Below, piece by piece: positions 5,983 to 32,900 of a stretch of DNA of 64,000 nt. Positions within the stretch are counted from its first letter, which is position 1. The number at the start of each line of letters is the position of its first letter. Origin of the DNA: Amoebophrya sp. A120. Taxonomy: Eukaryota; Protista; Dinoflagellata. A program made the translations under genes and the position numbers. The stretch covers positions 7,249,612-7,313,611 of the forward strand of contig CAJINV010000003.1 in NCBI GenBank assembly GCA_905178155.1, read 5' to 3'. The notes beneath the pieces were generated by a model. That model was given only the letters and a program-made list of their open reading frames with translations, was not told the DNA's origin and ran no database searches.

Positions 5983-8900
5983 CTGTAGTTGGGACAATTG
6001 GAATTGACAAAAGTAGATACACGAAGGAAATAGCGACTAACTTCGTTCCGATCAGGACACGCATCGGCCGGAAAAGATTAAAAAAGGATCCTTACTCAAG
6101 CTCGCAAATAAGTATCGCGAAGATGATGATGAGCAACAGTCTTATTCGAACTATCTGCTCTCCGTCTTCAATGGATGAACGATACAAGTAAAATCAGACG
6201 CGGCATGTAATACGGCTGCATGCGTAGACAGATGGTTTGTCGACGCATGCAAATGCATCTTTGTCTTTCACAAGTCCGAACTCATAGATACAGTATTCAA
6301 GAAATTATCTCTATCTGCACTTGAAGATGAAAATCTTCCTCATTTCATTTTTTCATGTACCTTTTCACAAACTCCTGCGTGTTGCCGTCTTTCCAAATCC
6401 ACATGCCACTCCCACTGATGCTGGTGCCGTGCTCCCCTAGGCCGCTCATGACCCCGTCGACCCACTGGCCATCGTAGAAAGCGCCCTCCGTCCACTCGCA
6501 CCGGCCTCGACCGTGGCGATCGTCGTCGCGGAAGTCGCCGGCGAAGACCCAGTTGTTGGGCCAGTACATGAGCCCCTTCCCGTGCATGTGTCCGTCCCGC
6601 CACTGCCCCACATACTTCTTCCCGTTGCCCTTCTCGAACCCGGCCTCGTTCCACTCGATTTTTCCGAACCCGTTCACGATACCCTCACTAAACTGCCCCT
6701 CAAAGTAGCTGCCGTCGCTGAGCAGGTAGCTGCCGGCCCCGTGCTTCCGCCCGTTGAGCATCCACCCCTCGTAGCGGCTGCCGTCTGGGTAGATGACCGG
6801 CTCCGTGGTCTTGTACGGCTGCGTCCGGTCCTCGACCACCTCGATGGGGGGCTTGTGCAGTTTCGGCTCCCCAACCGGGATCTCAATGTCGATCGGCTCG
6901 CCGTCCTTGCCTCGCATCTCCATCACGTGCACCTTCTTGTGGCGGCCGCGGATCGCGTACCAGAAGAGGAAGAGCACCAGCACCCCGATCGCCGCCCCGC
7001 CGCCAATCATGACAGGCGGCTCCAGCAGCGGCGTGGCCTCGGTCGCGGACTCCGAGTCGGCCTGCGAACCGGTTGGAATCTGCCGCGTCACCGTGGTCGG
7101 CGCCGCGACGGTGAGGCCCGTGACGGCGAGCCCGGACAAGGAGCTGTCGTAGGTCTGCACCGCGTTTTGGAACGTGGACAGAAAACTCGACTGCTGATTG
7201 GTGATGGCGGAGTCGAAGTTGCTGGCCGTGAGCCCAATGGAGGCTGCACTTGTCCCCACCGGTGCAACCACGGTGAAGGCCACGGCCGCCGCTTGAGTGG
7301 TTTGCAGCTGCCGCTGTTGTAATCTTCTCTCGCGCAGGACGAGGAGGCTCGTGGTAGAAGCTGCCGCGGCGCCGAAGGTCACCGACGTCACTTCAACGTG
7401 ATCCACGGTCAGCTCCGCGATGTTCAGCTTCGTAATCACTGACGTTTTCGTAGCACTGGTAATGGCGTTTCGCCACTGTGTTTCCTCCGCCGAGCCGGCG
7501 GTAAAGCTGGGCACGTTGAAGGAGAGCCGGGAGGCCAGACCCTCTTGCGTCTGCACCTCTGCGCCCTCCACGACGCACATTGGTGCCGTGCCAGGAAGCA
7601 ACACCCCGTCTTTGCATTCGTAGAAACCGTGCAGCGTGTGCCCGTCCGCGCAAACCGGTTCGCATCTCGTGGCTGGTAGAGCGATCCCATCGAGGCAGGT
7701 ACCGAAGGTTTGCTGGTTCACAACGGCAGGTGGCTGCGTGGTGCAGGAGCAGCTCGCAGGTGTGTTTTCTTTGTGCGTACAGGCTTCCTGTGTGCGGTCC
7801 GCTGATGCTGGAATCGTAGCGTTATTGGCCGTACAGTACTGGAGATCGACCTGGATTTGTGATGTCGATGATGTGTAATTGCTTGCGTCAAAAACTTCAC
7901 TGTATCCGGCTATAATTTTTGCGCATCATGATTTGCCTACTTTTGTTTAGCTGAATCGTATGGTGGTCACGATCAGCTTGCTCAGTTTCAGTGCGACTAG
8001 AACCCAGACAAAGATTTGTCGCGGCACGGACGCAACAGCAGAGCCGGTCCAGGTCCAGAAGCAACTTCCTTACAAAAAAATCGTCAAAGTTAAAGTGCAG
8101 CTACAGCTTGTCTCTAGAATATTATAAAATCGCTTCATCTACGTTCTCGCGGTGTGTATGACTACTGGCAGAAGGCAGAAGAGAAAGTCCGGCATAATTT
8201 GGTCGCATCTCATGGCGTGCGAGCTACTGTCTAAAGTATGCAGCAAATGAAATCATCAGGCTGCAGCTGCGACATGCGGCTGCCGAATGTAACAGCTCCT
8301 TTTAATTATCTTTTATACCATCGTCTTGACGTGGTTGGTTTTGTTGGTGTATTGGCACTCCAGCGGCCGATAACGGACTCCAGGCCCGCAGTTTGCATTG
8401 GGGTACTCGCACTCAGTCCATCCGGCGCTTGCCTCGACATAGCCGAACCCGCCTTCGATGGGTGGCAAGTGACAGCGATCCCCGACGTATCCATTGACGC
8501 AAGCGCAACGGGACTGCGGCCCACCGGTGCAGGAGCCTCCGTTCACACATGGCGGGCACGTGCAGAATTCTCCGGAGTATCCGTTCTGGCACTGGCAAGC
8601 ACCGGTCACTTCGTTGCACGTGCCTTGTCCGTTGCAGGTCGAAGCCGCGACGCAGTGCGTGGTGCAGTTCCCCTCCGGGTAGTAATTCGGTTCACATGTG
8701 GCGCATCGTGGCGCGGCGAAGCCGGGCTTGCACTTGCAGATGCCCGTCCCCACCACGCCCGGCTCCTGCCCGTCGTAGCAGCCGATGCTTCCTCCTGCGG
8801 CGCAGTCACACGCTAGATTGCAGTAGTGGTTGTCGGTGGGGTGTTTTCCGTAGAAGCCCGGATTGCACCGACACTGCACGGTTGGGGTCAAGTTGTCAAA

Positions 8901-11900
8901 CCATTTTTGCACATTGAACGTGTACAGCAGTCGGTTTTGTGCGCTGGAATCAGTTGGCAAGAACATTTTTCGTCCCTCCCAGCTCCCAAAGAACTCGGAC
9001 ATCGACCGCAAGTTTTGCTCCTGATTAAAGATTTCCACGGATACGAAGCTCATACTGTTGTCTGCCGAGGCTTGGAGCGACGTGTCCACGAGAATGTGGG
9101 TATTTAAGTCTTCAAACGCTTCTTGGAGAACGTCGGACAGCCCTCTCTCGCGCTTGAACCCAAATTCGTCTCCGGTGTCGTCGTCGTCGGCACTCGTCTC
9201 AAGGCCCTGTCGCCGCGCACGAATGGCTTCCGCCCGCTGTCGCTCGGGCTCTTGCCGCATCTGCAGCTCCGGTACCACGCGCGGATTGTGCAACGGGTTG
9301 GAACTCACCTCGGTGACGATACTTTCTCCATTACTCCTCAACGCCCTCGTGTTGTGCGCATTGTGCAGCTCCGAGTCCGTACCGGGCCACCGCTTGCGGG
9401 GCCGGTGCTTCCCTAACGTCTGCAAGCGACCCAACCAACTATCGTATGCTCGCGATGATCTTGCTTCGCCATCTTCCTCTATCTGATGTTCCTCGGCGCT
9501 GGCAAAAGAGGGCGCCGTCAGCACGTCGGCGAGATTTCGCTGGAGCCGCAAGGCGGGAACCAGCGGGCCATATACATCGGAAGACTGGAAAGCCGAGTGA
9601 CAGGTTCCTGCGCCACAAGCGAGCTGCGAGGCGAGAGTGACTTGTTGGTCCGACGCTTTGCTCGCGAAAGTGCTGTCCAAACCGCCGGACTTGCAGGAGT
9701 GGTCGCAGTTTGATCCGTAAAAGCCGTCGGCGCAGTGGTGACAGTGCGCTCCCTGCCAGTTGAATTTGCACACACATGTGCCGTTGCCGGCACGACTGAA
9801 ACTTCGCGGCGTCGTGCCGTTGCGGAGACACTGATTCTGGTCACTGCACGTGGGGCCGTAGGTCTGGCCAGTGCCATCACACATACAGGAGCTAGGGGGA
9901 AACAAATTGTTCTCGTCCAGCAGATTCAAATTGCATGGCGTGGTCGTGGAGCTGGTCGTCGTGAATTGGTTCGGATCGGCCGGGGCGACCGCGGATATCG
10001 CCAGCACTTCGGCATTGAGGCCCTGCGACTTCATCGCGTCGGCAACGGCCGTAGCGTTGGTCAGTGCCGCATTCGGTTCCGTCACGAGCGACCGCAGCTG
10101 GTTCCAGGAGGAATACGCCTCTTCGTGCGCTGCTGCGCTCGCATTCGCGCTCGCCTGCTGCCCGCTCGTCAGGAAGGTCACATTGTTTGCCACTGCCGCT
10201 GCCTGCACCGCGGCGACCTATTGATTTTTTAAAATCGAAGTCTTCTACTAAGTCGTGTGAACATATTGAGTTTTGGTCATAATTGATCTCTCGCGCTTTT
10301 CTTTTTCCAACGAACCTACCATACATTAAAAAATGTACTGCACAGTATTCCAGGTATGGCTGCAATACAACATCACACACGAATCCTAGCTTCTCCAGTG
10401 AAAATGTCTACACGAAGCGATGAGAGCAGTAGATGCAGCAGAACTACCACGATACATACACACAAAGACTTAATTGATAGATAATGTGAATTTAGTGAAG
10501 ATGTAAATAGCAGTGCTTTTCCACCAACTACATGTCGTCTACAGTACCTGTTGTGCCTGCTCCACTTGCTTCGCTGCTACTTGCTGTGCAGCCGCCGTAT
10601 CGTTCAATCCGGAAGCCAAAGCGTCTGCGAGCATGATGCTCGCAGGCACATTGGCCAACGGTGCCTGCGAAGAGACACTATCCGCTGGCGTTTCCTTAGC
10701 CTCAACCGATTCCGCGGTCAAAACAGGCTTGTCTTCTTCGACCTGATAGGTTTTTTCAAGGAGAATGAACCGACGTTGTACAAGAACTTTGGAAACATAC
10801 ACGCTTCTTTGTTGTATCTAATGTATTTGGATAAAAAAATTTCAAACCAACTGCGCACTTTTGGCGGCCGGCAATGCTTATTCTTATGTATGTTTCGTGT
10901 TGATATAAACTCAGGTCGTGGTAGTCCCCGTCGTAGACTTAGTTTTTTATTTTTTAGTTAATGCATGAAAATGGCGCGACTACAAACCTCAGTCTCCCTG
11001 GCACGACAAAATCTTCGCTCTGTTCCGTGATCTTGAACATGGAAATACACGAATGGATTTAGAAACAGCGTCTCATACCTCGTAATTGACGTTGACACTT
11101 CCCGCCTGCACGGACACGACTTTGATGCGACCCAAAGGGATGCCGAGGAGGGTGGCAATCGAGTTCCGAAAAGATAGCTCGTTAGCGGCGGCATTTGATT
11201 CCCACGTACTGATGTCCATGGAGATCTTCATGTCGACCTGAACCACCGCGACCGTCTGCAGGAAAAAGCCTTTGTGCACAATTTGGTGGGAGTTGGTCGT
11301 GGTCCTCTGGTTGTACGTGTGCGCCACGGTGCCACCAAGTCCGCGCAGAACCATGGTAAAGAACTTCTGCTGCGGGTTCTGCACGTGCGCCCCGTGCGGG
11401 AACGCAGTCTCGGCGGAGGCCGCCACGCTGCCGGCGCACGGCGCGGCGCGGGTGCAGGAGGACTGGGCGCCGAAGGCGTGGATCGGTACTTGCTTGTTCA
11501 ACTTGTCACCCCCGACGGTGAGGTCGTCGATGGCCTCCCCGTCAATGTAGGGCCGGATCTTCAGTGGGGAGGAGAAGTAGATTTTGACCACCACCCATTC
11601 GGTGTTGATGAACGAGAAGAAGTGCAGCCACTGGGTCTGCGGCATACTGGCGGGGATCACCAGCTGGTACTCGTTGTGCACCTCCACCGCCATGGGGTAG
11701 AAACTGTGCCCGAACTCGCAGCCCCGGGGGCAATCGAGATGATCGTACATGTGCTGTCCCGCCGTCACGCGCCCGTCTGTTTTGCGGGTGATCGCAAAGT
11801 GCCCCAGCTCCCGCCGATCCCAGCCGCAGCAATCGTGATCTGCGGAATCCCAGTTCAACAAGGCCATGGGCATGTTCTGGCAAACGTAGCTGCCGCGGGC

Positions 11901-14900
11901 CGGGTCCGTGCACTTTGAGGCGTCGGTGAGCGCGGACACATCGGGCAACACTGTGGCGCGGCCGGCCGGGCCGGTCACTGACTTGCCTGTCAATGTGCCG
12001 TCAAGATCGGACAACCAGAACTGGAACATGCCCGGACTATGCAGGGAAAGCGACTGACTCAGAGGTACTGACTGCTGCGAGCCCTCAGAAAAAGCACACC
12101 GCAATAATATACCAGAGAGCAATCAACTCCCTGCGCTCTGGCACTGGGGTAATGACATACAGTTACAGATACAGATTTTTAGCGCATGAGCAGAAAAAAA
12201 ATCATCTGCCGGTGCGGGTACGGCTACGGCCTGCAAAACAAATAAAAAGTATCTCGATAGGATTGGTAGTTTTCATCTAGGGCAGCAGTCACTCTGTACG
12301 ACCACTCGCTTTCTTTCCATATGGACACCCTGGGTAGTCACACGAGGTGTCGGAGGACCCCTTACCGCGAAAGTAGCTCAAGTAGAACCGACCGTCAGAG
12401 GAGGGGTTCATTTCGGGAGCGTTCGAGAGGCGCCGGCGGGGGCTTTGCACCAGCGATTCGCCGTCGGACGCTTGCAATTGGACAACTTCCCCTGCTTGTT
12501 CTGTACTGGATGAGGTAGAGGTAGAAGACACCAGCGCTCCTGATTCGAGCGCACTTCTCGGCGCGGTAGCCAAGGACCAGGCTCCCAAACGAGACGGCTC
12601 TTCACTCGGGCCCAGCAAGGAGGAAAATTTTGCGATCTTCTTCGAAGATCGCCTTTTCTCCAGCAACTGCCGCCAGGGGCTGGACAACCTGCGTTGATCA
12701 GCGTCCATCATCAAGCGCTTCTGCAGTGCACACGAACCGCCACTAGAAGTAGATGAAGAACCGCAAGAAGTCGACAACACTTGCTCTTGGTCGCTCGTAG
12801 CGAGTAACAAGCCACGGCCCCCTTCAGCGCCGTGGTCATTGACATCATCGTACGCTACCAGCGTCTTGGGGAAGAAGTGCTCGTCGAGTTTGTGCCAAAT
12901 GTTCTTCGGATTGCTGTAATCGAGCAGCTTCACGTGTTCCGCTTCGTGCTCCTGGTTCCATCGGCCGTCCGCAGCAATACCAGATAAGCGGCGCATGCTG
13001 GCGCGATTGTGGCCCACCCAGGTGACGCCGCGAAAGTCGATGTTTGGGTTGAAGTCGCGGGCGGTTGGGTTGTACGTAATCGCGACTGAGTTGCGACCGC
13101 ACCGCCCGACGGGTGCGCCGAGGTACATTTCGTCCTTGTGGTGGAAGTACCCGATGCGAATCGTGTCCACGAGGAACTTGCCGTAGCGGCTTCCGCGGAT
13201 CCCGTACCGGTTTTCCCACGGCATCGCGCAGGTACGGTCCGGGATCAGGGCCTTGGGCGCAAAACACTGAGAATCGGGGATGTTCGGGCCGTCCTCGCAG
13301 GTGAAGCCGCGGTTCGTCACCGTGGGCGCCATGAACCCGATGTGCCGGAACGCCTTTCCGACGACGGACGGAGCCGTAGTTTGGTACAAGTCCGACGCGC
13401 GCGCAGAGCGCCCGTCCAGGGAGTCGGTGCAGGTGGAGATGTCCGTGGTGCCGAGGATGTCCGAGTATTCCAGAGTGAATTCAAGCGAGGTCTCGCGCTC
13501 CTGCCGGTGGAAGTGACCGTGGATGCCGATGTGGTTGTCGGACACAGTTACCTTCCGGAGCTTCAGCGAGCTCGGCTGGTCCGCCCACGTGATCCCCAAA
13601 TGGGCGTTCTTCCAGGCCGTCAGGTATTCAGCAGTAACGCACTCGTAGCCCGTGCCCGCGCAAGCCGCCGGACCGCCGCCGGCTTTGCTGCAGCCACGGC
13701 GGATGTGAAACCCGACCAAATTCCCGTAGGCGTGGTTGCGGGACGACTGCCGGTCCGGTAGATGCGCACCGTACACGTTGCGCTGCGCTTGGTTGTCGCA
13801 CGCCGGCGGCCGGAAGATGAAGCCGTGGTCCCAGGAACCCGCGGCGATGTTGCGCTGCAGACTAGAGACGCTGCCGTCGTAGTGCGAGTCGTAGGTTTGG
13901 AACATGGCCCGCGGCCAGTACACGCTGTCGATGGTGCGCAGTCGCTCGTCGATGTGGCGCCACATGGTGGAGCCAAGATTGTCCTCGATCTGGATGTCCC
14001 GGCCACGGAACACGTGCACCGCCGGGCCGTGCAACCGCGAAAAAAAGTTGTTGCGCACGGCCACGTTTGCCGGCCCCGCGATACGCAAGGCCTCGAAACC
14101 AGACACGAAGAAGGAGCACTGGTCCACGGAGGAGGCGCGGAAGTCGCGACCGGTCCCGGAGAAGAAGTACAGGGAGGGAATCTGGTAATACATTTTCCCC
14201 GTCTGCCGGAGGTACACGCTCGACAAGGCTGCTGTCCCCACGATCGAGCCGTCCTCGCTATCGACCACCGTAATGCCCGCCCCGTGGTTGAAGTTGTGAT
14301 CGAAGCCGTGGGGGAACTGCTGCGGGCTGAGACTGGCAGTCTCGGCCGAGCCGAACCGCACATTGCGGTCGAGCAGCGCGACGTGCGCCTTGAACCAAAT
14401 GTCGGCGTTCCCAGCTAGAATTTTGCCGGAAAAGTGCCGGCTCTGCGCCTGACCCTGAATACCAATCTTCACTGCTTTCCCGAACTCGAACTCGCTCCCG
14501 GTGACCAGTTCCGGCGCACTGGTGATGCGGAAAACTTCGGCTTGCGTCTTGATCTCGGCTGCTGAGTAGGGGTACTCGGTTGGAGTCACCTCGATTTCCA
14601 TGCCGACTTTCCACTCTGTCAAAGCAGCCTCGCAATCCACGAACACGAAGCGGTCGGTGGGGTGCGCAGTCTTTGCCAATCCGGTGAACGGACACACCAG
14701 CGGCTTGCCGTGCATCTGGAGCTCGCCCAAGACCCCGATCAACTTGTTGTTCATGTCGATGCCGTTCCGCATTGTGATCCCGGGCCACCCTTCCCCGTGT
14801 TCGCCGTAAATCTGCCGGCACTCGGCATTGGAGTTGGGACAGCTCTCTGGTCCGTGCAGCAGCACCTCCGCGTTCCCGAGGTACGGATAGCCTTTGCTGC

Positions 14901-17900
14901 CGACGAACATTTGGCCGTGCAGCTGCACCGCGTGCGCGCGCAGCGTTTGCGTGCTGGTGTGGTTCGCGCAGTCCGTCCACCCCGTGGCGCACATGTCTTT
15001 CACCCCGGTGATGAACTGGTTCTGTTTTTCCGTGGTGTTGTAGAACACCTCGTACTCTCGGCACGTCAGCATGCTGGGCTGGTCGTTCTTCCGACACGGC
15101 TTCTCCAACGGGCAGTGCGACGTGCCCGTGCCCGGGTCCGTGCAGAACTCGTTCTGCAGCAGTGGCGGCATAAAGGTGAGCTTCCCCAGAACCGTCAGCC
15201 GCCGGATCGCGGCAGTCTCCGTCGTCAGAATCACCGATTTGAACTCGTCGATCGTGACCACCTCATTCGGCTCGGGCACCTTGCCACTGGGCCAGGTGTC
15301 CGGGTTCTCCCAGAGCTGCGCCGTCGCGGACGTCTGCGCCGGCGCCACGGGGCAGCCCTCGACGGGGCACTGGAATGCGATGGGGTTCACCGTGCTCCAC
15401 CCCGTCTTGAGGCTGTGTACCACCGCGAGGCTCCCGCTCGCACCCATGTCGGCCAACTCCTGCTGGTAGCGGAAATCGGTCGTCGTGTAGCTGAAGGTCA
15501 GATTGGTCGGCACCGTGATGGTGCCGGCGTCCAGGTCGTCGCGGCCGAGCGCCTGCACGGTCTGGAACACACCGCTGCCCGAAGACGTCTCTTGCGTGAA
15601 GGTGAGGAAGTTACTCAGGTACCGCTGGATCAGCCGGTCGGGGTTGTCGCGGTCGCGCCAGTCGCGCGTCAGCATTCCAAACCGGTCCATGGACTGCTGC
15701 ACCTCGTACAGGTCCAGCGGATGCGTCACCAGGTGTGTGTCCGATTTTGTGACCCGCAGTTCCGGCACGTCCGTTTCGTTGGTCCAGCCAGTCGTTGCAG
15801 TGCCGTCCGTGCGAAACTGCCCGCCCGGGTGCTGCACGACCACCTTTTTGTACGTTTGGTAGCTGTGGTGCGCGGTGCTGAGCTGACACACGCCCTCCGC
15901 GAACCGCGCACAGCACCCGTTTCCGGTCGCGCGGAACGTCATGAACATACAGTTCGTCTCGAGCAGACACAGTGCCTTGCACTGCGCCAGAGAGGTGCGC
16001 TGCCCCGCGGTGTTCTGGTCGTCGCAGTCCGCGTAGTACCCCGTGCGCGACTTACGAAACCCGGCCGTGTCGCAATACCCGGTTCCGTGCAGCAGCATGT
16101 CCTTCTGACCCGTGCTGTTGCTGAAGCTACCCAGCTGCACAAACATCGCGTGCGCGCCGTGGCCGTGGTACGGCGTGGGAAACTCGTTGAGCTTTTGGCT
16201 CGGCTCGAACTCCGTGTGTACCCGGTACAGGGCGTGGGCCCCGTCCCAAGTCGAGGCCAACTTGCCGACCTGGAAGGTCTTGCGGAAGTTCGGTCGGAAG
16301 TAGGGATACATGGTGCCGCACCACTCCTCGTCCTGCCGCTGCCACCCGTGCCCGATCCACGTGGACCATTTCATGAAGTCCATCGGCGTGGGGTGCGGGT
16401 CGAACGAGTACCAGAAGGGCAGCTCCGCATAGCGGGCGTATGGCGTGTGCCCTATCGTCGACGGGTACATCGGCATCTGGCCGGTAGTCACGCTGTCGTC
16501 CATCACCATCGCCGGCGGGGCTACGTGTTGTTTGTTCCATTTGGCCAGCACCATAGGCCAGCACCACCCGTTGTGGCCGTTCGGCGAGCACGCCATCGAC
16601 CGGTAGGGGATATCGTCGTGCCCCGCCGCGGAGCTGACGCGCAGCTCGTGGTTGTCGAAGTTGGGGAGCGCGTACCCGGTGAAGTCCATGATCCCAGCGT
16701 ACCGTACGTGCACGTGCTCACGGTTGCAGTGCATCTCCTTCGAGTTTGGCGCGTTATCGATGAAGCGGCACAGGGGCCCGGTCGCTGCGCGGTCGTAGGC
16801 ATCTGCGTTGGGGGGCGGCACGACGCCTTGCGGGGTGTGGAGCGCGAGCGAATTCCGGGTCCACTGGTTGAAGCCGAACTGGCCCGTCATGTAGCCACCG
16901 TGGGTCGTGAACCCGGTGACGGAGCCGTCCAAATCGTGCCAGATTGCGTACCGGCTGTAGGATTCCGTCCACAGCAGCCCCCCGGTCGCGTTCACCAGGG
17001 TGACGGCACTCATGCGGTGCGTGGGCACCAGGTAACCAAAGGCGGGGCAGTTGAAGCCGCCGGCGAACGGCGGCTGGTCGCCGTAATTGACGATGGTGAT
17101 GTTGTGCATCCAGTACCCGTCCTGCCCGTTGAAGTAGAACCCCAGACCCGGGTTGCGCCGGTTGGGCTCCTCCATGTCCCCGACCATGAGCCAGTTTTGG
17201 AACATCGGCCGCGCCGGGTTGTCGTCCGGGTCCGTAAACTTCGTGACGTAGCCAACGCCCGAAGGCTCGATCACGTTGAAGTCCCAGTAGTGGCAGGGGT
17301 TGCAGAGCTTCACAAACAGCGTCGCCCCGCAGTGCACCGCGGTGAACTTGTTGACGTACAAGTCCAGGTTCGGAGCCCACGCCGGGAAGAACTGGATGGC
17401 CATGCCGCAGCCCACAGCGGAGTTGTTGACCATGTGGTTGTACTGGATGCTCTCCCCCGCGAACTCGCCTTTCGGGTTGAAGCGGTACCCGAACGCCGAG
17501 GCGTAGCCGACGTTGCTGTCCCAGATAACGCTCCCATGCACTGCCCAGTAGGCCGCCGGGGTGGTATCGTCCGCGAGGCCGAGCACCATCGGCAGCGCCT
17601 TGATGAACACGTTGTTGCGCCACACGGTCTCCTTTTCGTCCCCGTTCTCGATCTGCATGTTGTGAGCCTTGATCAGGTACCCCACGTTGCCCTCCGCGAC
17701 GGTAAACTTCGTGGAGTGCGCCACCACGCCGCGCATGAAGGAGTGGTGGATCGCGCAGTTGTGAACGTACGACTTGTACACGTCGACCTGCCGGCCCGGG
17801 GACATCTTGTGAAAGTGCGTGCAGTAGCGACCCATCTGGCCTCCCTGGCCGCAGTTCCGGACCTCCACGTCCTTCAGCCGGTATTCGCCACCGTAGAACG

Positions 17901-20900: not shown

Positions 20901-23900
20901 CCGCGGGTTTTCCCTGCACCGAGGACCGTGCCAAGGTGTACCCGATGTTCGGTTGGTACACTTTCACTTCGTACAGTCCCGCCGGAACCGTGTTTGCCGC
21001 AACGGTGCATTTGATGTGCAGTGCCTCCACCGTCGCCGAGCTGTCGTCCATTGCACCCAGGCGCGCCGGATGATCCACCGGTGAGACGTCTGCTAAGTAC
21101 CGCCATTCCGAAACCTCGCAAGCAAGTGCACTGTCCCAGTCCATTCCTTTGCCGATGACCACCATGGGACTAGACGGCGGCTCCGCAACGTCACTGCGCG
21201 GCAATTGCTCCCCGGTGCCGTTTCCGCGCAGATGCGGAGGCGGGTTCTCGACAAACACGTCGATTTCGGCCCCGCCGAACCCGTGCGGGTTGGACACGTG
21301 GCTAATGTAACTAGTGCTGTCGTACGTGAAGTTCACCCGCGCGACGTCCGACAGGTAAGACGGAATTTCGTGCTCCACGTCGCCGTAGCCGATCGAATCC
21401 GGGTCGTCCAAGCGATAGGGCACGAATCCCATGTACTGCAGCGTGGCAGCCTCGGATTTGTGATTGAAGCGGCCGATCGACGTGCACAAATCGTAACTCA
21501 GAATGCACTGTCCCAGCTTGAGGTCGACCCCCAAACTGAAGGACCGACAGCCCTGCCAGAACCGGTCCACGCACTCCTGCTCGCAGTCCTCTCGTGTGAA
21601 GATCTCCATCGGCAGCAGCTCGTTGGCTTTCGCGCCCGGCGCTGCGGAGGACTGCAAACAAACCCCCTCAGACTGAACGGCAGTCGACGTAAGGTTCGTT
21701 GGCCGAATGCCGAACTGGATGTTGGGCACGTTCAACCACGAGGCGAAATCCGAATGGGAATGAATCGGCGTGTCCGCGTTCGGGGTGATACAGCGAAACT
21801 CGGTGTGGGTTGTCTTTTTCATGGGGCACTCGCCGATCGTGAGCATTTGGGGATGCTTGCACGTCGTCGAGGACGGATCGGGCGGGTCGAAAATCGTGTT
21901 GTAAACAAGAAAAACCGAGTGATAGCCGGTCTCAAAGCCGAAGCCTCGACCGGTGATCTTCACCTGCGTCCCGCCAGCGATCGATCCGCTTCGCACGTCG
22001 ATGCTGGCCATGTCAAAGGCTTGCGAAAAGCGAAGGTTCGGCGTGTGTCGTGTCCCTGTCATGTTCAAGGCGTATGTCAAGTGGTGTTTCAACGTGGAAT
22101 TAAAATTAGCCGGGAGTTGGTGGGGCTGGATGTTGCTTGCCTGCAAATTTGACGCCGTGTAGTCCGCCTCGATTTTCAAATAAGAATTTTGCATCCCAGC
22201 CGGAAACTGGCAAACGTCGGCGTTCAAAATCGAAATGTCCATCGAGCCGCAACTCGAGCCGAACCAGCCCTCGTAGCAGTTGCAACTCCCATCCATGGGG
22301 TCGCAGAACCCGTGGCTCGCGGCAGTGCAGTTCGTGTTGGCCTCGCAGTACGTGCCACAGGTCGGGCCGTAGTAATTGCGACCGCACTGCGAGCAGTCGT
22401 AGTTGCCATCCCAGTTTTTCTCACAGGAACAACTTCCGTCGGACGCACAAGCGCCGTGCCCGTTGCATGTGGTCGCGGCGTCACAGTAGGTGAAGCACTG
22501 GCCCGCCGGATAGTAGTTTGGCGCGCACTGGTCGCACTTCGCACCGCCCCAACCGGGCAGGCAGGTGCACGCTCCGGTCTGCTGATCGCACGAGCGAGAA
22601 CCTCGCTGGTGGCACTCGCACTTCTGGTCGCAGAGGTCCCCGAAGTAACCGGGCTTGCAGACGCAGTTCGTGGAACTGCACGCGATCGTGCCCCGGGCGT
22701 TGCACAGTTTCGGCAAACAGGACAGTGCGCAGATGCCGTGCGGAACAAAGCCCGCCGCGCACTCATCGCACCTCGCCCCCGTCCAGCCCGGTTTGCAACT
22801 GCAGGCCCCGGTGTAGGGATCGCATTGACCGCCCGCCAGCGTTCCAGCCGCGTGGCAGCTGCACTGCCCAGAGCAGTCGGTGCGGAAAAATCCGGGCTTG
22901 CATGTGCATTCTCCCGTTCCCTCTGACGTGCCCACACCATGCGCTGATTGCGTGTTCTGCGGGTGACAGGTAGAGTGATACTGGCACGCTGCGCCGTAGT
23001 AGCCGTTCACGCTGTTGGGATCTTTTGGTGGACAGCGGCACGCGCCTGTATTCGGATCGCAGTCGCCGTTGACGCAATTACAGTAGAACGAGCACTTCGG
23101 CAGAACGGAAGTAAGATCGCGTGCCGGAACGAGATACCGGTCTGTCCGAAAGCTGACGTCAACACCCGGACCGTCGTGCCCAGGCTTTTGCAGACCCATG
23201 AAAGTGTTCGCTTTGACCGTAATAGTGAACAGTTCCTGTCGAACATCGCCGGGGAAACTAAGAACAACGGCCTTGGCCTCGTTTGCCGTACTGTAGTTGG
23301 AATGGAACGCAACGTCCGTCACATTTCGCTGGTCAATCGGCTCGCAGGAAAGCGCAGAACCGCAACTCTGCACCTCGACAACGGCGTCCAAGCTTCCGCT
23401 TTTGCCTTCGACTTCCTCTGAAAACAGCAGAAAAACTCTGCTTCGATTCTGCACGTGATCAAACAACACTTCGTAGTCCACCACGCCCGGGCGCAAACCA
23501 CTCGCCGCGGTCTCGTTTACTTCCACGTGATAGAACCCCTGCGTGCTTAGCGCAATGTTTTGCGGACCGTTTCCGGAGGGCTGCGCAGCACGCAGCACAT
23601 TCGGCGGGATCTCAATGTGAAACGTAGCACCATCGACAAACTTATACTGCGTAATGCAATCAGGCGAAATGCCTTGCTCTTCCGGTGGAGTACTACTCGG
23701 TGGCGGCGCGGGGCTGGAACAATTGGACATGCTTGGCGCAAACACGAGATACTTCCCGTGCACGACCAGTTTGTGCACCGGAATTTCAAGCATGCCCACA
23801 CCCGATGGGGCGCTCGTGCTGGGCGGCGCACTCGACGAGGGGCCGCCCGGCGACGAAGCATTTGTGTCGTTACTGGTCTCGTTCATGGTGGAGTCCACTC

Positions 23901-26900
23901 CGCTGCCTGGTTGCCCGGTCGGTGAAGAAGATCCTGCCGCGGGTCCCAGAAAATCAGAAGCATTTGAAGAATCTGACGCGTTGCTCATGTTGCTGCCATT
24001 TGACGTATTTGACATATTCGACCCGAAGTGGTGCGTCAAAAGACGCAGGGCTGCGTCGGCATCATAGTCCTCGTCAAAGCGAATAGCAGAAGCAGCGCTA
24101 GGCTGAGCAAAATCTTCTTCCGCTAAAGCGTACGACCCGTCTTCATCTCCTTTTTGCAAATCCTCATAATTTGCAGCCGAAGCATCTTCTGATAAACGCC
24201 TCCCGTGAGCTGCAACCCCTCCTGGAGCACTGAGCAATTTAACCATGCCTTTCGCGCCCGGTACGACTTCAATCGGTCGATCAAACGCCACAAAGACCAA
24301 GCCCTCGGGCGAAATGAAGTTCGCCTCGGGCTTTGCCACGGGCGCGGCTGGGGCGGGGTGGCTGTCGCACGGACTGAGTCGCGGGGAGGCGCCAGGGCCA
24401 TGGAAATGCTGCGCCAGAAAAGCGCTGTTCAACTCCGCAATGATGCCCGTCGCTGCGGCACTGCGCGTTCCGTAGGCATCCGCAGCTACTTCTGGAACGA
24501 CGGACAGCGAAAACCTCCTCCCGTCTTGCATGTCAAGAGATGCATCCCCGAAGGGCGGCGGTGCGGTGAAGCCGGTCGCGATCAGTCGAATTCGCCCGTG
24601 CTGCGCGAGGGTGACATTGGTGACAGTCATCGCCCGATTGTCGCACGATTCGGGACGGCAGTCGAGATCAAAGCCACAGTCGGTCAAAGTGAACGACGAA
24701 GCAACCGCGTTCCCCGTCACCAAAAGCTGACTAACGTCGCGCGACAAACGCAATTCAAAGGCGAGCGTCGTGTTGTCACTGAGCATCATTTCCTCGACGG
24801 CGCGATCCCCGAACGCGAGTTCCGAAATGGAATCGTTAGCGAAGCGAAGACTGTAAAAGGCCTTGGTCTCGAACAGTGTGGGTTTGGGCGCCGCTTTTGC
24901 GAGGACACGGAAATAAATCTGTCGTCCAGCGTTGAAAACGCCCGCGCCCTTCTCCGGCAATCGCATGCGGATCATCTTTGCGTGGTGGTGGTCCGACACC
25001 TCAAACATTCCCCCCGCGTCCGCCATCGTTGCGAGTTCGGCATCCGTCCCGAAATCGAGTATTCGAACGTCTTGTGCCTCAAACAGCTGCGCCACACCGG
25101 CGGAAACCGTCCACTGCACCTGCTCCCGATGCGCGTGCGCAGAGCTGATAGTTGCGTTGCTACCTGGCGTCCATTCGCAGGGTGCGAGCTCATGCGGGTT
25201 ATGAGCGGTCTGGTTGATGGCACCCGAGAGCGCAAAGTCGTAGGTCGCGTTCACAAGGTTCATTTCGTTGTTCCCGGACGAATCAGTGACCAGCCCAGGC
25301 AAAATGGTGAGCTGCAACTTCCGCCGCAGAGGGTGTGGACCAGTAGCGGGGATCCGGATCTGAACAGCAAGGAGCCCGGGAATCGTGTCCGTAAACCGTG
25401 CGTCAGTGCCGTAACTCCCCAGAACACTGGCCATCGAGGCTCCTGGAACTTGGAGGGCGTTCGCCGTGTATCCCTTGTTGTACATGACACCCGTCACATG
25501 CGCGCTCACGTCCAGCATTTCGTTGTCGCACGCCGAATGGCAGTCCATATCCCAGCCGCAATCCGACAACTCGAAGAACTGCATCTCATTCACACCGTTC
25601 TTCTTCGAGATTTGATGGCTAAAGTAGACTGAAAACACAACGTGGTAGTTGCTGCCGGAAGGATCCAGAAGCTCCAGGGGACTGTCGATGTGAAATATCG
25701 GGTAGACTGGCATGCTGCGGGGCTGCGTTCCGCTCGGTGCAGTGTTGAATGTGTACTCGAGCGGCGGAGTCAGAGTGCTCAACAAACCCATCTTGTTGCC
25801 GTCCCGATCCTGTAAAAGGCCATAGCGCTCCGTGTGCAAGTGGTACGCTTTGCCAGGCTGCAGCTCAGTGAATTGGCTTTGCTGTGATGCAGCCCCGGTA
25901 GACGAGGAAGGGCCGGCAGTTTGGTTGGCTCCTGATGTCGTGTTGGCGCCGTAGAGAGTGAGCACGCTGGGGGTGAGGTACAGGTATTTGTCGGACAGAA
26001 AACGATGGAAGGGCTGGTCCTTCAGAATGGCTAGGTCCAAGGCGAAATCCGGTGGCATCGAATAGTTGGCACCACTGTGATGCGCCCTGATCTCGATCAC
26101 GCCCAGGTTGGCGAAGTCGATGGGTTCCGAGAACTTAAGGATCAGGTTCTCAGTTGCTGCAGAGACCCCCACAGCTCCGTGCGCCGGATGCGAACTTGCG
26201 GTGTCCAGAATGGGACCCTGAAGTGTCATCGGAGCCTTCGGAAACCATCCTACGGCACACTGGTCGCAAGTTGGTCCTGTGAATCCAGTTTCGCAGACGC
26301 AGTCTCCGTTCAGGTTGCAGGAGCCCTTGCCGTTGCAGGTGGTTTCTGCTTTGCAGTACTTGCTGCAGCTACCGGGCGGCGCAGGATAATAGTCGGGCTT
26401 GCACGTCTCGCACAGCGCGCCACTGCGCCAGGGCCAGCACTGACACTGGTTGCCAGAGCAGCTCTGCGTACCTCCGGCATCGCAGTTTACATCGCAAGTC
26501 ATGCTGCAGTTGCCGCTCGGAACACGGAAGTCTGCGCAGAATTCGCAGTTGGTGCCATTGAATCCGTCGAAGCAAGTACAGCTGCCGTCGCCCTGGTTCC
26601 CGTCGTTGCAGGTTCCGGACAGAACCGGGGTGGGCGCGAACGCTACGCCGTCGTGCATGTTCACCCGGTCGGCGTAACAACGACACTCGTTCTCGCACTT
26701 CGTACCCCACCAGTTCGGTTTGCAGTGGCAGGCTCCTGTCCACGGGTCCACCTGATGGGTGCCTGCCGGGCTGCACGCCGCGTCGTTTTCGCAGTATGCT
26801 CCCCAGAAATAATCTTCGCACTTGCAGCGAGGGTGGGTGACGTTGACCAATCGTTCCTCCGTTTCCTCATTGACCAGGGCGACCTGACCACTACTAGTGC

Positions 26901-29900
26901 CATTAGATTTAGAGCCATTAGTTCCATTTGTGCCATTAGCCGGCACACTCGTCGATTCCGTCACGTTCCGCATCTCTTCTCGCACAAAGGGGTGGTTGCA
27001 AACCCCCCGCTTGTTGCAGATAGCGATCGAATCGCACTGGCTGCAGTCCGCCCCCGTCCAGCCGTGATCGCACGTACAAGCCAAAATGTCTTGCGTCTGC
27101 CCGTTCACCTGTCGCTCGACGGCCCCGCACTGCCCGTGGCCCGAGCAGTGCTGTGTGGCGTTACAGAAAACGGAGCACGAATTTCCGTAGTAGTTCGCCG
27201 CGCATGTGTCACACAGCGCTCCGTTGAAGCCCTCCTTGCACTGGCAAGTGTTTTGTCCAGGCGCGGTGGTGGCATCGGAAGAGCAGGACAGCGTGTTGCG
27301 CGGGTCGCACGGAGTCTTTCCAACACAAACCGTATCGCAGTGCGGAAAATTGATGTACCCTGGCGCGCACTGATCGCACCTCGGTCCGGCAAATCCCGTC
27401 TTGCAGACGCAGGTCCCATCGGCGCGATCCCGTTGCGGGTGAAAGAGCCCGTCGTTGCAAAATGCCGTGCCGGCCTGGTGGCAATTGCAGTCGCGGTCGC
27501 AGTTGGCGCCGAACCGGTTTCGTGGGCACTGCACCTTGCAAATACCCGCGTAACTACCGTCGTTGGTACTATCACTGGCGCTGCAGCAGGCACCATCCTT
27601 CTCCGGATGGCATCGCCTGGAACACATGATGGTGGTCACCATGGACTCGTCGTTCGCCTTGGAGGCGTCATTGCCGCCGCCCGGATGCACCACAATGGGT
27701 AGCACCAACCGATGGGCCCCCGCGATGAAGCCATTCTGTGCAATGTGCACCTCTACGTGCCGCATTTCCTGCGTCAGATCAATGTTGGCCTGCAGGATCG
27801 CGATACCCGTACCCATGGTGGAATTGGCGAAGCTCTTCACCATGTCGGACGCGTGTTGCGCCACACTCACCACGTCGTTGTGATTCGCCAGATAGAACCC
27901 GCACTCGTTTCGAGGCTCGGTCAAATTTGTGAACACGGTCTCGAGGCTGGAACAGTGCCCCGCGGAAGTAGAGTCGTTGAAGCGCTTCATTTCCGGCCGC
28001 TCGCTAAATTGGCACTCGACCGCGCCGCAATCCTTGATGTGCACGTCCGCATCGGCGCCCACCGTTGTTTGCAGGGCTCTGTCAAAGTGCAGGAAGAAGA
28101 GCACAGTGGCCATGGTCGCGTTGCCAGAAGCTCCACTCGGACCGCTGTTGTGCTCGAAAACTCTGTAGTCAAAGAAAAGCATATGCGGCGCCCCGTTTCC
28201 GTCTGTAGGAGCTGGGTGGTGCTGGTTATTTGTGCTGAAGGTGTACATGGTTTCATTCGTGAACTCGTAGCCTGGCGTGGGTTGGTTCCAACCGACATAC
28301 TGCTTATTTCCGACAGCGTTCGCGTCGCGGATGACCGCCTGGGAAAAATCGAGAAAGTACGTGGAGTTTTCTTCCAACGCTTGCTGGAGTTCCTGCGACG
28401 CCAGGGAGAGACGTCGACCCGCGGCATTCCGGTATCCGCCTCCTGCGACGGAGTCGTAGGGCAGCGGCAACGCGATGCGAAAAACTTCGTTCGCAGGTTC
28501 CACTTCGACATCGGTGTAGTTCACAACCGGCTGCGGATTCACAAAATCCACATAACGCTTGTCAAAAACGGCAGTGTCGTTCGGCTGCTTCATCACTTTG
28601 ATAAAACCTGACACGGCAACAACTTCATGCGAAAACGTCAGAACGAGCGGGTCGTGAGGAGCGTGGTCCGATGTACCGTTTTTCGGCACGGAGTCATAAA
28701 CCAATAGCTCGAGCGGGTAGCTCGGCCGCGCGGATTCGTTCGCGGCACGTGTCTGCGTAAGATTTGTCTTCGGGTGGTAGGCAGACCGACACGCCGCACA
28801 GTTTCCTGGCCCGGAACAGGGCTGATCGGTACGCTTGAAGCCGTCCGCGCACTCGAGCACCATACTGGCGGCCGTCGCAACAGCTGACGAACCGCTGCTC
28901 GGGGCTGCAGAAAGCGCTCGCGGGGAAGATACTCCCGGTGTACTATCAGGTGACGAAAAACCCATGGCTACGGCAGGTGTTGTCAAATCGGCGTGAAGCT
29001 CGGAGCTCGAATCAACTAAGTGATCACTATCCCATGCGATCCGGGCGTCATCGTCCGCCAGGTGTGCCGGTGCGGCTTTCATGCCGAACGCCGCAAGGCG
29101 CTGCAGCAGTGCACTTGAAGAAGGTTTGCGCGCCGCGGGGAGCGGCGCGGCAGAAGATGCATCATCGGCGCTAAGACCGTCCGCGCGGAGGGCACGGCGG
29201 CCAGAACCTTTTGGCGTGGCGAGCACGTAATTTGGCGGCAAAGCTAGGTTACACTCCGCACCTGTGTATCCCTGTTTGCACACGCACGATCCCCCGGAGG
29301 TGCCCCGGATGCAATGTTCCGTTCCAACCGGGTCACACTTGCACTGGTTCTCACATCGGGTTCCGTAGAAGTTTGGCTCGCAGACGCACTCCAGTTGTCC
29401 GTTGCGCACTTGGCACTCGCCTTGGCCAGCTACGCAGTGCGGACACGTGGCGGCCGGCCGCGTGATGCCTCGGTTCGTGCTGGTCAGCAGGCAGCGGGTA
29501 TTGTCATAATTTCCGTGGAACAATTCGGCGCGAACCAGGGGCGTGTATGACAAGTTGTCGATGAGCTTTGTGCTCTCGTTTGCGAGCGGAAACACCGCGG
29601 GCGCGTACTCCGTGGCGAAGCTCTGGCCCTGGAGAAGATCGCCCGCAACCACAACCCCGAAAGACTCCCCCGACAAAGCCGATTTTGGGAAGACTTCGAG
29701 CGCCGCAGGGGTGCTGCCCCAGTGGGATTTGTGCATGCAAGGCTGTGGTCGAAGAGCAGGGGCCGCAGTCGTGCTAGTACCTCCGCCCGCCCCGCCCGCG
29801 GTGCAATAACTCTCGGCCTTCACCATGTTGATGACCACTTTGGCCTCGGTGGTTACGGTCGCCACACCGCTGTACCGCCCGACGCGCATGGCTTCGAACC

Positions 29901-32900
29901 GCTCCAAGTATGGAACAGCCGTTGTATTGCAGCGGATCCGGGTGTCCAACACCTCAGTCACCACGCAGGCGGACTTGGAGTTGGATGTCTCGTACGTACC
30001 GCGGTAGAAATACGTGAAGTTCGTTTCCAAGAAAACCGCGAAATTCGCAAGATCCAGCACCATGGTAGAGTCGGGGTTGATGGCCCGCCGCTGTTGCAGC
30101 GACATACCGGGGACCAGCGCTGGACCGGTGTGAACCACCGTCGCAGCAGCGGTAGACGAAGCAGGGGCGGTAGAAGAGTTCGTCGCATTCGACGTATTGG
30201 ACGTCCCGTTGCTTTGATTGCCACCGGCGCTGGGAGGACCCGCAGCAGACAGCTCGCGGCGCGACGCGCCATACATGAGTGCTCCAACGGCGTCAAAACT
30301 ATCGTCCTCGCTGGTCGTGACTTCTTCATCGTCTGATGTTAGCTGCCGATGCAATTGGCTTGACGAGGGCAATCCACCCAGAAAACCGTACCCCTCGATG
30401 GTGGTTTGCACACCGCCCGCCAGACCATGGAAATCGTCCGGGGTGACGCGTGTCACGTACATCGCGGTGTCAAGCTGCTCCCCGGTCAGCATGGCATAGC
30501 CGAATGGCTTCACCGAAATTTTCGGTGTGAGTAGGAAATCGCTCACGCCCCTGTACATTTCCGGATCCAGCACGTAGTGGTTGAACTGCGTGCGCAGGTT
30601 CGGGTCCTCCACATACGTGGGCGAGTCAAAGTCGCGGGAGAGCCGGCAGGTCAGTCGCGTCGATCTCACCTCCTTTATCAAGCAGTTGCGACTCACACGC
30701 GGCTGGCCGCTCATGGTTTCTACCAAATCCACCGTGATGTGCTCCGAGTAGTCGAACGCGGTGTCGTTTTGCGGATTCAACGAGCCCGGCAAGTCCAAAT
30801 ACCCCAGCCAGGCTGGCGAGAAGTCGAAGGTCAGAACGCCCGGAAACCCGACCGCGAGTTTCACGGGCGCGAGGCTTTCGACCCGGCTGGTCAGCGTCGG
30901 GTCAAATGTAAAAGTGAAGTCGTGGATGGTCTCGTGTAGAATCTTCAGACCCCGCTGCTCGCAGCTGTAGTGCGGGGCGGCATTGCACGCCACGGCGATG
31001 TAGGGCACACGGCAGTACAAATTATTCGGCAAGATGTGGTCCTTTTTGCTGAAGCTCGTGCCGTCGTAAAAGAGCGCGGCGCGCGTCACGTTGGTTGTGT
31101 TGTCGGCGGCAGGTCGGTCCGACTCTTCGAGCGTGATGTTCCACATGTCTTCCCGGTGCGTGGCGTTTGCGTTCCAGCCCAAGTGAATGTGGGCGCAGGT
31201 GATTCGCTGCAGGCCAAATCCAGTGAACTCGATTTCAGTGCCGCCTGCAAGGGACCCCGACGTCGGGTAAACGTTGTGCAGTTCCAACGCCACGTCCATC
31301 GTCAGGTTCTGGCTCATCGCGAACCCCTGACCACCGATGCTGATCTCCGGCTGCAGACCCCGTCCAACCGTTCCGTCCTGCAGCGTGCAGGTCACCTCAA
31401 AGCGGGTGGCGAATTGGAAATCCTTGAGCGGATGCACGATCGAAACGTTGGCGGACTGTTCTGCTCCGGCCGCTGATGCGCCGCCCCCGGCGCCGAGAAG
31501 CGCACGGAAGTTGTCGTCATTCTGGTCCGGACAGTTCTCAACGCAACGGTGCTGGGTCACGAGGCAGTCCGAGTTCCCGACCGTGATGTTGAAGTCGGAG
31601 GTGCGCAGCCCGTACACTGAAGCGTTCACGTTCGCAAAAAGCGGCTCACCCAGCAGACTAGTCCGCACGCTCCTACCACCGCTTCGCGTGATCACCACTG
31701 TGCCGTTCTCACCCATTCGCGTTGCCGCCGACCCCTCCCCGCGCGGCGCCATCAAATGTCCGTCCTGCGTAAAGACCACATCCTCCGCGACGACGGCCGG
31801 AACACGGTTCGTTTTCCGCATGGCCATGCTCGCCTCCGGAAGCAGCACGTTGGACAGCACAAACGTCAGCTCCGCACCGGCAGTGACTGTGACCGCCGAC
31901 GGACCGGAGAGCGCTGCTGATTTCGCGCCGGGCTGATTGTTTGCGTTATTAAGGACCATCACCGCCTCAACCTGTGGCGTGAAAGATTGCGAAAATTGAA
32001 AATCCGCACTCTGGATGTACTTCGATGCGGCCAGGATGTTGTTGCTCCGCATCTGTGCCTGTGGCACCGCGTGCGGCACTCGCAGCCAATCCGCAGGGAT
32101 GTACTCGTAGAAAAGCGAATTTCGGTTACCGCCCTCTTGGACCATGTAGAAGTTGATCTCGGCACCGGTCCCGCCCAACTCTGCGAAGTCACTCCCGGAA
32201 TACTCCGCATACAGGCGGCGGGGATCCACCGGGTCGTGGAAGGTATAGGGGTCGATGAAACGAATCCCGTACGAGAAGCCTTCCTCCGGGCGTTTTTCGT
32301 AGTCCGCGTTCCAGTCGGTACCAAGGTTGAAGACCTCGATCCGCGGAAAGATCTTCAGCAGCGCCTCCTGCACCTCGTAGCGCTTCACGTTGTAGGGCAG
32401 CGAAGTTGTGCAGCTCCGTGCCACCGTGGCGTTGGTTTTCGAAGAACCTCGGCAGAGCTTGAAGTTGCCGGACAGGGGTGCCGACTCTTCCTGCGACAGG
32501 GTAACGATACCCCGCGTGTAGGGCGTCTCGGCCGCCGTGGCGTTACGGGGCGGCACCATCTCAAAGGTTGCGTGTGTTGTCTGGCCGTACAGCCCGTGTG
32601 TGCCGCTTCCCAGAATGCAGTTGAAGGTGATTTCGAACCCGACCGCGAGTCCGGCACTGGTGGCCTGCGCCGCCGCAGCCGTGACGGTAGGCAAGCAGTC
32701 CTTGGTGTACTGGATCGTCGATCCGGCCGCTGATTTCGCTCCCCGCAGCGCCGTTTCCAACGTCGCGGTGTCCGCCTGGTCCACGCGGACTTTGTCGGTG
32801 AAGTACTCGGTGTGGCTCAGGTCGTGCGACACCTTCACCTTCACCGAGTAGAACTGCCCGGCATCCGACACGAGAAGCGCGTGCTTTTCCCGGTCGCGCC

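What the first reader, a model, noticed from the sequence alone, without database searches (positions are those of the whole stretch)
7317..30360. Recurrent RRL(S/Q) motifs bracket disordered inserts: possible TEXEL/PEXEL-type polyprotein processing
Seen: RRLS occurs five times (12424-12435, 12682-12693, 12982-12993, 24190-24201, 28405-28416) and RRLQ once (7317-7328). Variants RRELS, RQLT, RRALR, RALS, RALR and RERGLS also occur. They sit mostly at the edges of low-complexity segments, often in pairs (SMRRLS...~185 aa...PRRRLS; LHRQLT...SRRELS; GRRALR...SPRALS). Known: Toxoplasma ASP5 cleaves after RRL and Plasmodium plasmepsin V cleaves RxL. Inference: the precursor is cut in the secretory pathway into many subunits with excised spacer peptides, an ASP5-like maturation code outside Apicomplexa.
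Basis: partly seen in the sequence, partly recalled or inferred. Interest (0 to 1): 0.8.

Follow-up and report, generated by a model that had tools for sequence, protein, structure and literature searches.

The report
Cut-site code in giant plankton-parasite protein
A roughly 9,800-residue surface protein of what is likely a parasitic dinoflagellate carries a repeated Arg-x-Leu motif, kept by its relatives at the edges of variable inserts, that likely marks where a secretory protease trims it, as is known in diatoms, water moulds and malaria-type parasites, though no cut has been shown here.

Summary
The six RRL(S/Q) sites are at the stated places, on the minus strand, in one spliced 9,857-residue fibrocystin-L (PKHD1L1)-like membrane protein. 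A 31.6-kb spliced contig keeps every insert, so they are not introns. RRL is the protein's most over-represented tripeptide (10 against 1.7 expected). Orthologs keep Arg-x-Leu, not RRL: the middle Arg survives in column at 2 of 6 sites, so this is not a strict TEXEL. One spacer is 186, 134, 44 and 0 residues in four relatives, with Arg-x-Leu at both borders wherever it exists. The RRLQ lies in a predicted SEA-domain loop where homologs carry a furin site or a self-cleaving GS motif. Against: one RRLS is a strand of an Ig-like domain, only 5 of 10 divergent segments carry a motif, and no cleavage or protease was shown. Best reading: a secretory Arg-x-Leu convertase likely clips loops and leaves an associated multi-chain receptor; a site-1 protease is the main rival enzyme. 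The code is already known outside Apicomplexa (diatom RXL, oomycete RXLR); I found no report for dinoflagellates. The scan noted a similar protein before in another protist genome (e1-7157337).

The parts
12323..36750 (-). Exon 1 coding part, from the first in-frame ATG (an ATG at 35928 is an alternative start); no intron in 24.4 kb; TIG, EGF-laminin, Big_5-like, G8 and beta-helix domains
11077..12033 (-). Exon 2; conserved pre-SEA domain and first half of SEA-like domain 1
10546..10740 (-). Exon 3
8317..10215 (-). Exon 4; EGF repeats with a long insert
6360..7848 (-). Exon 5; predicted SEA-like domain 2, membrane helix, MORN repeats
5376..5981 (-). Exon 6 coding part and stop codon; cytosolic tail
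35761..35829 (-). Hydrophobic signal-like stretch just before TIG1 (read by eye; no predictor run)
30247..30348 (-). RQLT...RRELS pair around a 30-residue acidic spacer, within an insert of about 105 residues that splits one TIG domain; not covered by any ortholog found
28909..29199 (-). RRALR...RALS pair around a 92-residue spacer; RALS kept in P0001, first site shifted to RML
28405..28416 (-). RRLS at the start of a Big_5 strand; likely structural, not a spacer border (RSLS in P0001)
24034..24201 (-). RRLS...RLLT pair around a 52-residue acidic spacer (RLLL and RALS in P0001)
12424..12993 (-). RRLS...RRLS pair around a 186-residue spacer, with an inner RRLS at 12682-12693; spacer is 134 residues in P0001, 44 in P0030, absent in P0002
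11088..11102 (-). GSVNV loop of SEA-like domain 1, the self-cleavage type (label recalled)
9135..9539 (-). RNLA...RALR...RGLS in a divergent insert among EGF repeats; poorly kept in P0001 (RELE nearby, lost, RKVS)
7302..7328 (-). RRLQ and RQLQ in the loop of predicted SEA-like domain 2; two RRQL in P0001, RRRRRLT in P0002
6945..7010 (-). Predicted membrane helix (read by eye)
12034..12322 (-). Non-canonical intron with a 4-base direct repeat and a 13-of-16 terminal inverted repeat

Best explanation
The gene encodes a spliced, roughly 9,800-residue fibrocystin-L-like membrane protein with conserved Arg-x-Leu motifs at the borders of variable inserts, and these motifs are likely cut after the Leu by a secretory-pathway protease, which would remove spacer peptides and leave a multi-chain receptor whose pieces likely stay associated. 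Shown: gene structure, inserts in the mRNA, motif excess, conservation of Arg and Leu but not the middle residue, variable spacer length, one insert inside a TIG domain. Inferred: cleavage itself; the cut position (by analogy with diatom RXL, PEXEL/TEXEL and oomycete RXLR); the enzyme, most likely a pepsin-family relative of plasmepsin V/ASP5 with relaxed P2; that the halves stay bound, as in SEA-cleaved receptors; and that the organism is an Amoebophrya-type syndinian. If all 16 candidate sites were cut, the large pieces would be about 1,813, 354, 1,573, 3,684, 647, 450 and 516 residues.
For: Motif excess under three nulls. In flanks under 60% identity, Arg and Leu of RxL are both kept at 13 of 20 sites, against 25 of 97 for R-x-(not L) and 61 of 169 for (not R)-x-L (Fisher p 0.001 and 0.016). 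The 7948-8134 spacer is 186, 134 and 44 residues in three orthologs, each with RxL at both borders, and is absent in P0002. The SEA loop of 135 homologs holds a GS motif (78), a basic or furin-type site (45), an RxL site (7) or none (5), with 2 overlaps. That loop is the described convertase site of fibrocystins (PMC13566292, passage). RxL-loop homologs have more RRL elsewhere (5 against 1.9), GS and basic ones do not (12 against 12.3; 10 against 11.0). RXL removal from repeated precursors is described in diatoms (PMC4557024).
Against: No cleavage data and no protease gene: no genome is held. 28405 RRLS is a domain strand. 40 of 135 homologs have an RRL within the first 45 residues of the folded pre-SEA domain, so a conserved RRL need not be a cut site. 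Only 5 of 10 divergent segments carry a motif, 4 of 10 in both orthologs; 12 of 19 motif sites lie outside such segments. K-x-L pairs are kept about as well (4 of 7). Over all 135 SEA loops the broad RxL pattern is not above shuffles (6 against 4.1) and RRL is borderline (4 against 0.66, maximum 4); the classes were relaxed. The RALR and RGLS sites are not kept in P0001. P0002 shows no RRL excess (1 against 0.84). The SEA2 fold was not confirmed (pLDDT 36.6; Atlas SEA hit 0.79, a lead only).
Confidence: 0.45

Rival explanations
1. The motifs are not cut. They are structural strands, or sorting or binding words that edge flexible loops, and the protein stays one chain apart from self-cleavage at SEA1.
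For: 28405 RRLS starts a Big_5 match; RRL is common at the start of the folded pre-SEA domain in homologs (40 of 135); half of the divergent segments have no motif.
Against: Borders keep RxL while the spacer varies fourfold in length; the motif sits in the loop where homologs carry cleavage sites.
Confidence: 0.25
2. The same sites are cut by a site-1 protease (SKI-1/S1P, SBT6.1)-type subtilase, after R-x-L-x or R-x-x-L.
For: The RxxL/RxLx consensus (PMC13082318, passages) covers every variant listed. Known sites include RRLL, RSLK and RKVF (PMC8310232, passages). P0001 has RKVS where this protein has RGLS. Several RxL-type SEA loops read RRLL or RLL.
Against: RRLE and RELE occur at equivalent places in relatives, and I recall that S1P disfavours Glu at P1. 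One search found no listing on S1P in alveolates (listing only).
Confidence: 0.2
3. One reading: a strict ASP5-type RRL code cuts the precursor into many free subunits.
For: RRL is the top tripeptide. RRLSE at 24190 equals the MYR1 TEXEL, and ASP5 cuts internal sites (PMC4764566). Alveolate kinship is likely.
Against: The middle Arg is kept in column at 2 of 6 sites; 8 of 12 border sites are not RRL; ASP5 did not cut REL; an insert lies inside a TIG domain.
Confidence: 0.07
4. Chance, a DNA repeat, or inserts that are introns.
For: Arg and Leu each have six codons and RRL is frequent in non-coding frames (about 120 rows over six frames); the motif was chosen after the fact.
Against: The spliced contig runs unbroken through all inserts; codons differ; motifs are kept in orthologs.
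Confidence: 0.03

Closest known systems
Diatom RXL processing motif (silaffin Sil1p, silacidins, frustulins, cingulins, Silicanin-1; PMC4557024, PMC5525289, PMC9650480)
   Same: Arg-x-Leu at repeated internal sites of secretory precursors, often RRL or RRxL; protease unidentified.
   Different: Diatom substrates are small repeated peptides or short pro-domains; here the sites are paired around inserts in a protein of about 1 MDa.
Toxoplasma TEXEL / ASP5 (PMC4764566)
   Same: RRL at internal positions; one site equals the MYR1 RRLSE.
   Different: ASP5 needs Arg at P2; here P2 varies within the protein and between orthologs.
Plasmodium PEXEL / plasmepsin V and oomycete RXLR (PMC4764566, PMC11754927)
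   Same: Arg-x-Leu with a free middle residue, cut after Leu.
   Different: Those are sites tied to a position just after the signal peptide of exported effectors; these are many and thousands of residues downstream.
Fibrocystin / fibrocystin-L (PKHD1, PKHD1L1) SEA-loop processing (PMC13566292, citing Pei and Grishin 2017)
   Same: TIG, two G8, beta-helix and SEA domains; cleavage-type motif in the SEA loop.
   Different: Animal proteins are about 4,100-4,200 residues with an Rx[KR]R site; this one is 9,857 residues with EGF and Big_5 additions, two SEA-like domains (GS and RxL types) and a MORN tail.
Site-1 protease (SKI-1/S1P, SBT6.1) RxLx/RxxL sites (PMC13082318, PMC8310232)
   Same: The consensus matches all variants.
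   Different: Different cut position for RxLx; presence of the enzyme in this lineage not tested.

Membership tests
Fibrocystin-L/PKHD1L1-like proteins | TIG repeats, G8 domains and beta-helix repeats | tested here: met
   Pfam TIG, G8 (E 1.8e-31), CEMIP beta-helix (E 1.7e-20); BLAST to fish PKHD1L1 P0013 (E 8e-29)
Fibrocystin-L/PKHD1L1-like proteins | Membrane-proximal SEA domain | tested here: inconclusive
   SEA1 region aligns with homologs; no Pfam SEA hit; folds low in confidence
TEXEL (ASP5 substrates) | Strict Arg-Arg-Leu | tested here: not met
   Middle Arg kept in column at 2 of 6 sites; 4 of 12 border sites are RRL
TEXEL (ASP5 substrates) | Cleavage by an ASP5 ortholog | not testable with these tools
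   No genome held; needs biochemistry
PEXEL / RXLR | Site shortly after the signal peptide | tested here: not met
   First border site is about 1,800 residues after the signal-like stretch
PEXEL / RXLR | Export into a host cell | not testable with these tools
   A single-pass membrane protein is predicted; export is not expected
Diatom-type RXL processing | Arg-x-Leu at repeated internal sites of a secretory precursor | tested here: met
Diatom-type RXL processing | Demonstrated removal at the motif | not testable with these tools
   No proteomics available
Site-1 protease substrates | RxLx or RxxL consensus | tested here: met
   All listed variants fit
Site-1 protease substrates | S1P gene present and required | not testable with these tools
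   No genome held

The most novel reading that the evidence does not exclude
One ancient Arg-x-Leu convertase does for many protists what furin does for animals. TEXEL, PEXEL, RXLR and diatom RXL would be its offshoots. It is swapped with furin sites and GS self-cleavage in the same SEA loop, and this parasite has gained paired sites so that inserts placed inside folded domains are cut out like proinsulin C-peptide, activating a megadalton host-recognition receptor or releasing peptides.
Probability: 0.3. Interest if true: 0.7.

Novelty: new variant of a known kind. Interest (0 to 1): 0.42.

Why it matters
If cut, this extends Arg-x-Leu processing to dinoflagellate parasites and ties the apicomplexan export motifs to a general protist maturation code. 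It gives a tractable handle on an open question: the diatom RXL protease is unidentified (PMC5525289) and the oomycete RXLR protease is unsettled (PMC11754927). Sixteen candidate sites in one protein, an internal negative control (28405) and orthologs with shorter spacers make the cut position and enzyme class testable by N-terminomics. It remains a sequence-based inference, and the code itself is known.

Tried and rejected
Genome-wide secreted-versus-cytosolic count and a search for ASP5, plasmepsin V or S1P genes: not possible, no genome held. Within the protein the 397-residue cytosolic tail has 0 motifs, too short to be informative. Structure prediction: SEA2 alone pLDDT 36.6, pre-SEA1 region 45.7; not used, and no fold search run. 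Atlas hits all under 0.9. A test for a split EGF domain failed because the profile held one sequence. My alignment of the Ig-like repeats was too poor to use. Alignment A1 was picked for RRL and is circular. No ortholog found for residues 2050-2880 among shorter proteins, so the RQLT/RRELS pair is untested for conservation. Raw RNA reads covered only the last 1.9 kb in X11 and almost nothing in X12 and X13. Estuary RNA runs X4 and X5 gave short, nearly identical pieces and no variants at the motifs. The 1,672-codon plus-strand frame 14566-19584 was taken as a shadow of the GC-rich coding strand; not tested. Pei and Grishin 2017 is not held; I rely on the summary in PMC13566292. PMC4608785, PMC8540915, PMC6176090 and PMC13693241 (passages) did not settle whether syndinians have an ASP5-clade enzyme. 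No supplements were read; those of the Amoebophrya papers may list proteases.
Full report
Gene. The window is eukaryotic. A minus-strand frame of 8,181 codons (12289-36834) is followed by shorter frames. One 31,601-base contig of run X1 (RNA by guess, but it skips five introns) covers 37533 down to 5201, with joints at 12323/12033, 11077/10740, 10546/10215, 8317/7848 and 6360/5981. Raw reads of X11 confirm the last joint only. Run X8 covers 18501-38400 in one piece and may be this DNA's source. The joined frame gives 9,857 residues from the first ATG (9,583 from the ATG at 35928), about 1,071 kDa. Pfam finds TIG, laminin-type EGF, G8, CEMIP beta-helix, MORN and Big_5. It is a fibrocystin-L/PKHD1L1-like type I membrane protein. 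Four introns are GT-AG; one is non-canonical, with a 4-base direct repeat and a 13-of-16 inverted repeat, as described for Amoebophrya introner elements (PMC7789003, passages). P0002, a EukProt record (GEMP01000012.1; I recall the prefix as Hematodinium, not checked), shares the architecture down to the MORN tail. A syndinian dinoflagellate is therefore likely, not proven.

Observation. All six sites are exact and lie in exons, so the 'spliced out' refutation fails. RRL occurs 10 times against 1.7-2.7 expected, RRL[SQ] 6 against 0.24-0.41, and R-x-L[SQ] 16 against 4.3-5.4; RLR and LRR are not enriched. RRL is the top tripeptide, though only near p 0.1 after correcting for all tripeptides. Codons differ between sites. 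The 'edge of low complexity' claim is weaker: 2 of 6 RRL[SQ] sites by composition and 2 of 6 by strong divergence. Broader motif sites are enriched at divergent segments (7 of 19 against 14% expected, p 0.011), but 5 of 10 such segments have none.

Orthologs. P0001 (66% identical over residues 2316-9850) keeps both Arg and Leu at 13 of 20 RxL sites in low-identity flanks, against 25 of 97 and 61 of 169 for two controls; K-x-L gave 4 of 7. At the six headline sites the aligned columns read RSLS, RLLL, RRLK, RKLS, RRLA and, for RRLQ, no match in column but RRQLT five residues on. The conserved unit is thus Arg-x-Leu. The spacer between 12982 and 12424 is 186 residues here, 134 in P0001 (RRLK...RRLA), 44 in P0030 (RRLG...RFLA) and absent in P0002. 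The RALR (9336) and RGLS (9135) sites are not kept. Among the other long homologs, P0003 shows its own excess (RRL 5 against 0.34); P0002, P0004, P0005 and P0009-P0013 show none or little.

Placement. A TIG profile built from homologs matches residues 2137-2154 and 2288-2308 separately (5.6 and 11.0 bits) and as one domain (23.5 bits) when residues 2157-2262 are removed; removing only the 30-residue spacer does not restore it. So this insert lies inside a domain, and the motif pair brackets only part of it. Another TIG is split by an insert with no motif (5868-5998). The RRLS at 28405 begins the best Big_5 stretch and is probably a strand. The RRLQ/RQLQ lies in what reads as the loop between strands 2 and 3 of a second SEA-like domain, aligned with RRRRRLT in P0002; the fold was not confirmed. 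That loop carries the Rx[KR]R convertase site of human fibrocystin and fibrocystin-L, and fibrocystin-L with SEA domains is known from Alveolata (PMC13566292, passage). A profile search gave 1,282 hits, of which 150 were listed and 135 had a readable loop (15 dropped). Strict patterns gave 59 GS, 39 furin, 6 RxL (one shared with furin) and 32 none; RRL was 4 of 135 against 0.66 in shuffles, and broad RxL 6 against 4.1. Relaxed patterns, set after seeing those, gave 78, 45, 7 and 5, with 2 overlaps. RxL loops are a minority class, and the statistics for it are modest. In the same set, 40 of 135 have an RRL at the start of the folded pre-SEA domain, which warns that conservation alone is not cleavage.

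Mechanism. Inferred: a secretory protease recognises Arg at P3 and Leu at P1 in exposed loops and removes spacers of 30-186 residues; pieces of split domains stay bound; SEA1 may self-cleave at its GS motif (recalled from MUC1-type SEA domains). ASP5 itself fits poorly, since it needs Arg-Arg-Leu and did not cut RELLD (PMC4764566, passages). Plasmepsin V and the oomycete RXLR cut tolerate the middle residue but act near the signal peptide. Diatom RXL motifs fit best: repeated, internal, RRL or RRxL, enzyme unknown (PMC4557024, PMC5525289, PMC9650480, passages). Site-1 protease fits the letters equally well (PMC13082318, PMC8310232, passages). I put cleavage of some kind at about 0.7, split 0.45 for a cut after Leu by a relaxed aspartic or diatom-type enzyme, 0.2 site-1 protease and 0.07 strict TEXEL.

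Novelty. The code is known in diatoms, oomycetes and apicomplexans, and SEA-loop cleavage is known in fibrocystins. Nine library searches (listings, with passages of 14 papers) showed no paper on RRL/RxL processing in dinoflagellates or on an RxL class of SEA loop; Pei and Grishin 2017 could not be read and may mention it. The scan's note e1-7157337 reports a similar RRL-punctuated giant protein in another marine protist; I had reached the diatom comparison before seeing it and did not check it. Verdict: a real feature, a new variant of a known kind, with cleavage unproven; interest 0.42.

Noticed in passing
window 12034-12322 (-): Non-canonical intron with a 4-base direct repeat and a 13-of-16 terminal inverted repeat, like Amoebophrya introner elements.
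   Followed up: partly
window 7070 (-): In run X11, 139 reads end here in an adapter-like tail and nothing upstream of about 7300 is covered; either a truncated, amplified cDNA or a short transcript encoding only the membrane helix and MORN tail.
   Followed up: no
window 37533-36751 (-): The spliced contig starts right after a pyrimidine tract and AG, as a trans-splice acceptor would; the leader before the first in-frame ATG is about 780 bases.
   Followed up: no
window 36750-35830 (-): About 300 Ser/Arg-rich residues with low GC3 (0.46 against 0.75) precede the signal-like stretch; the true start codon is uncertain.
   Followed up: partly
window 6734-5376 (-): A cytosolic MORN-repeat tail on a fibrocystin-L-like protein, shared with P0001 and P0002 and not among the Pfam lists of the other homologs.
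   Followed up: partly
window 14566-19584 (+): A 1,672-codon open frame antisense to the G8/beta-helix region; probably a shadow of biased codon use.
   Followed up: no
window 11802-11816 (-) and homologs: A conserved RRL(S) at the start of the pre-SEA domain in 40 of 135 homologs, 32 of them in the 45 with basic SEA loops; RRELG here. Probably structural.
   Followed up: partly
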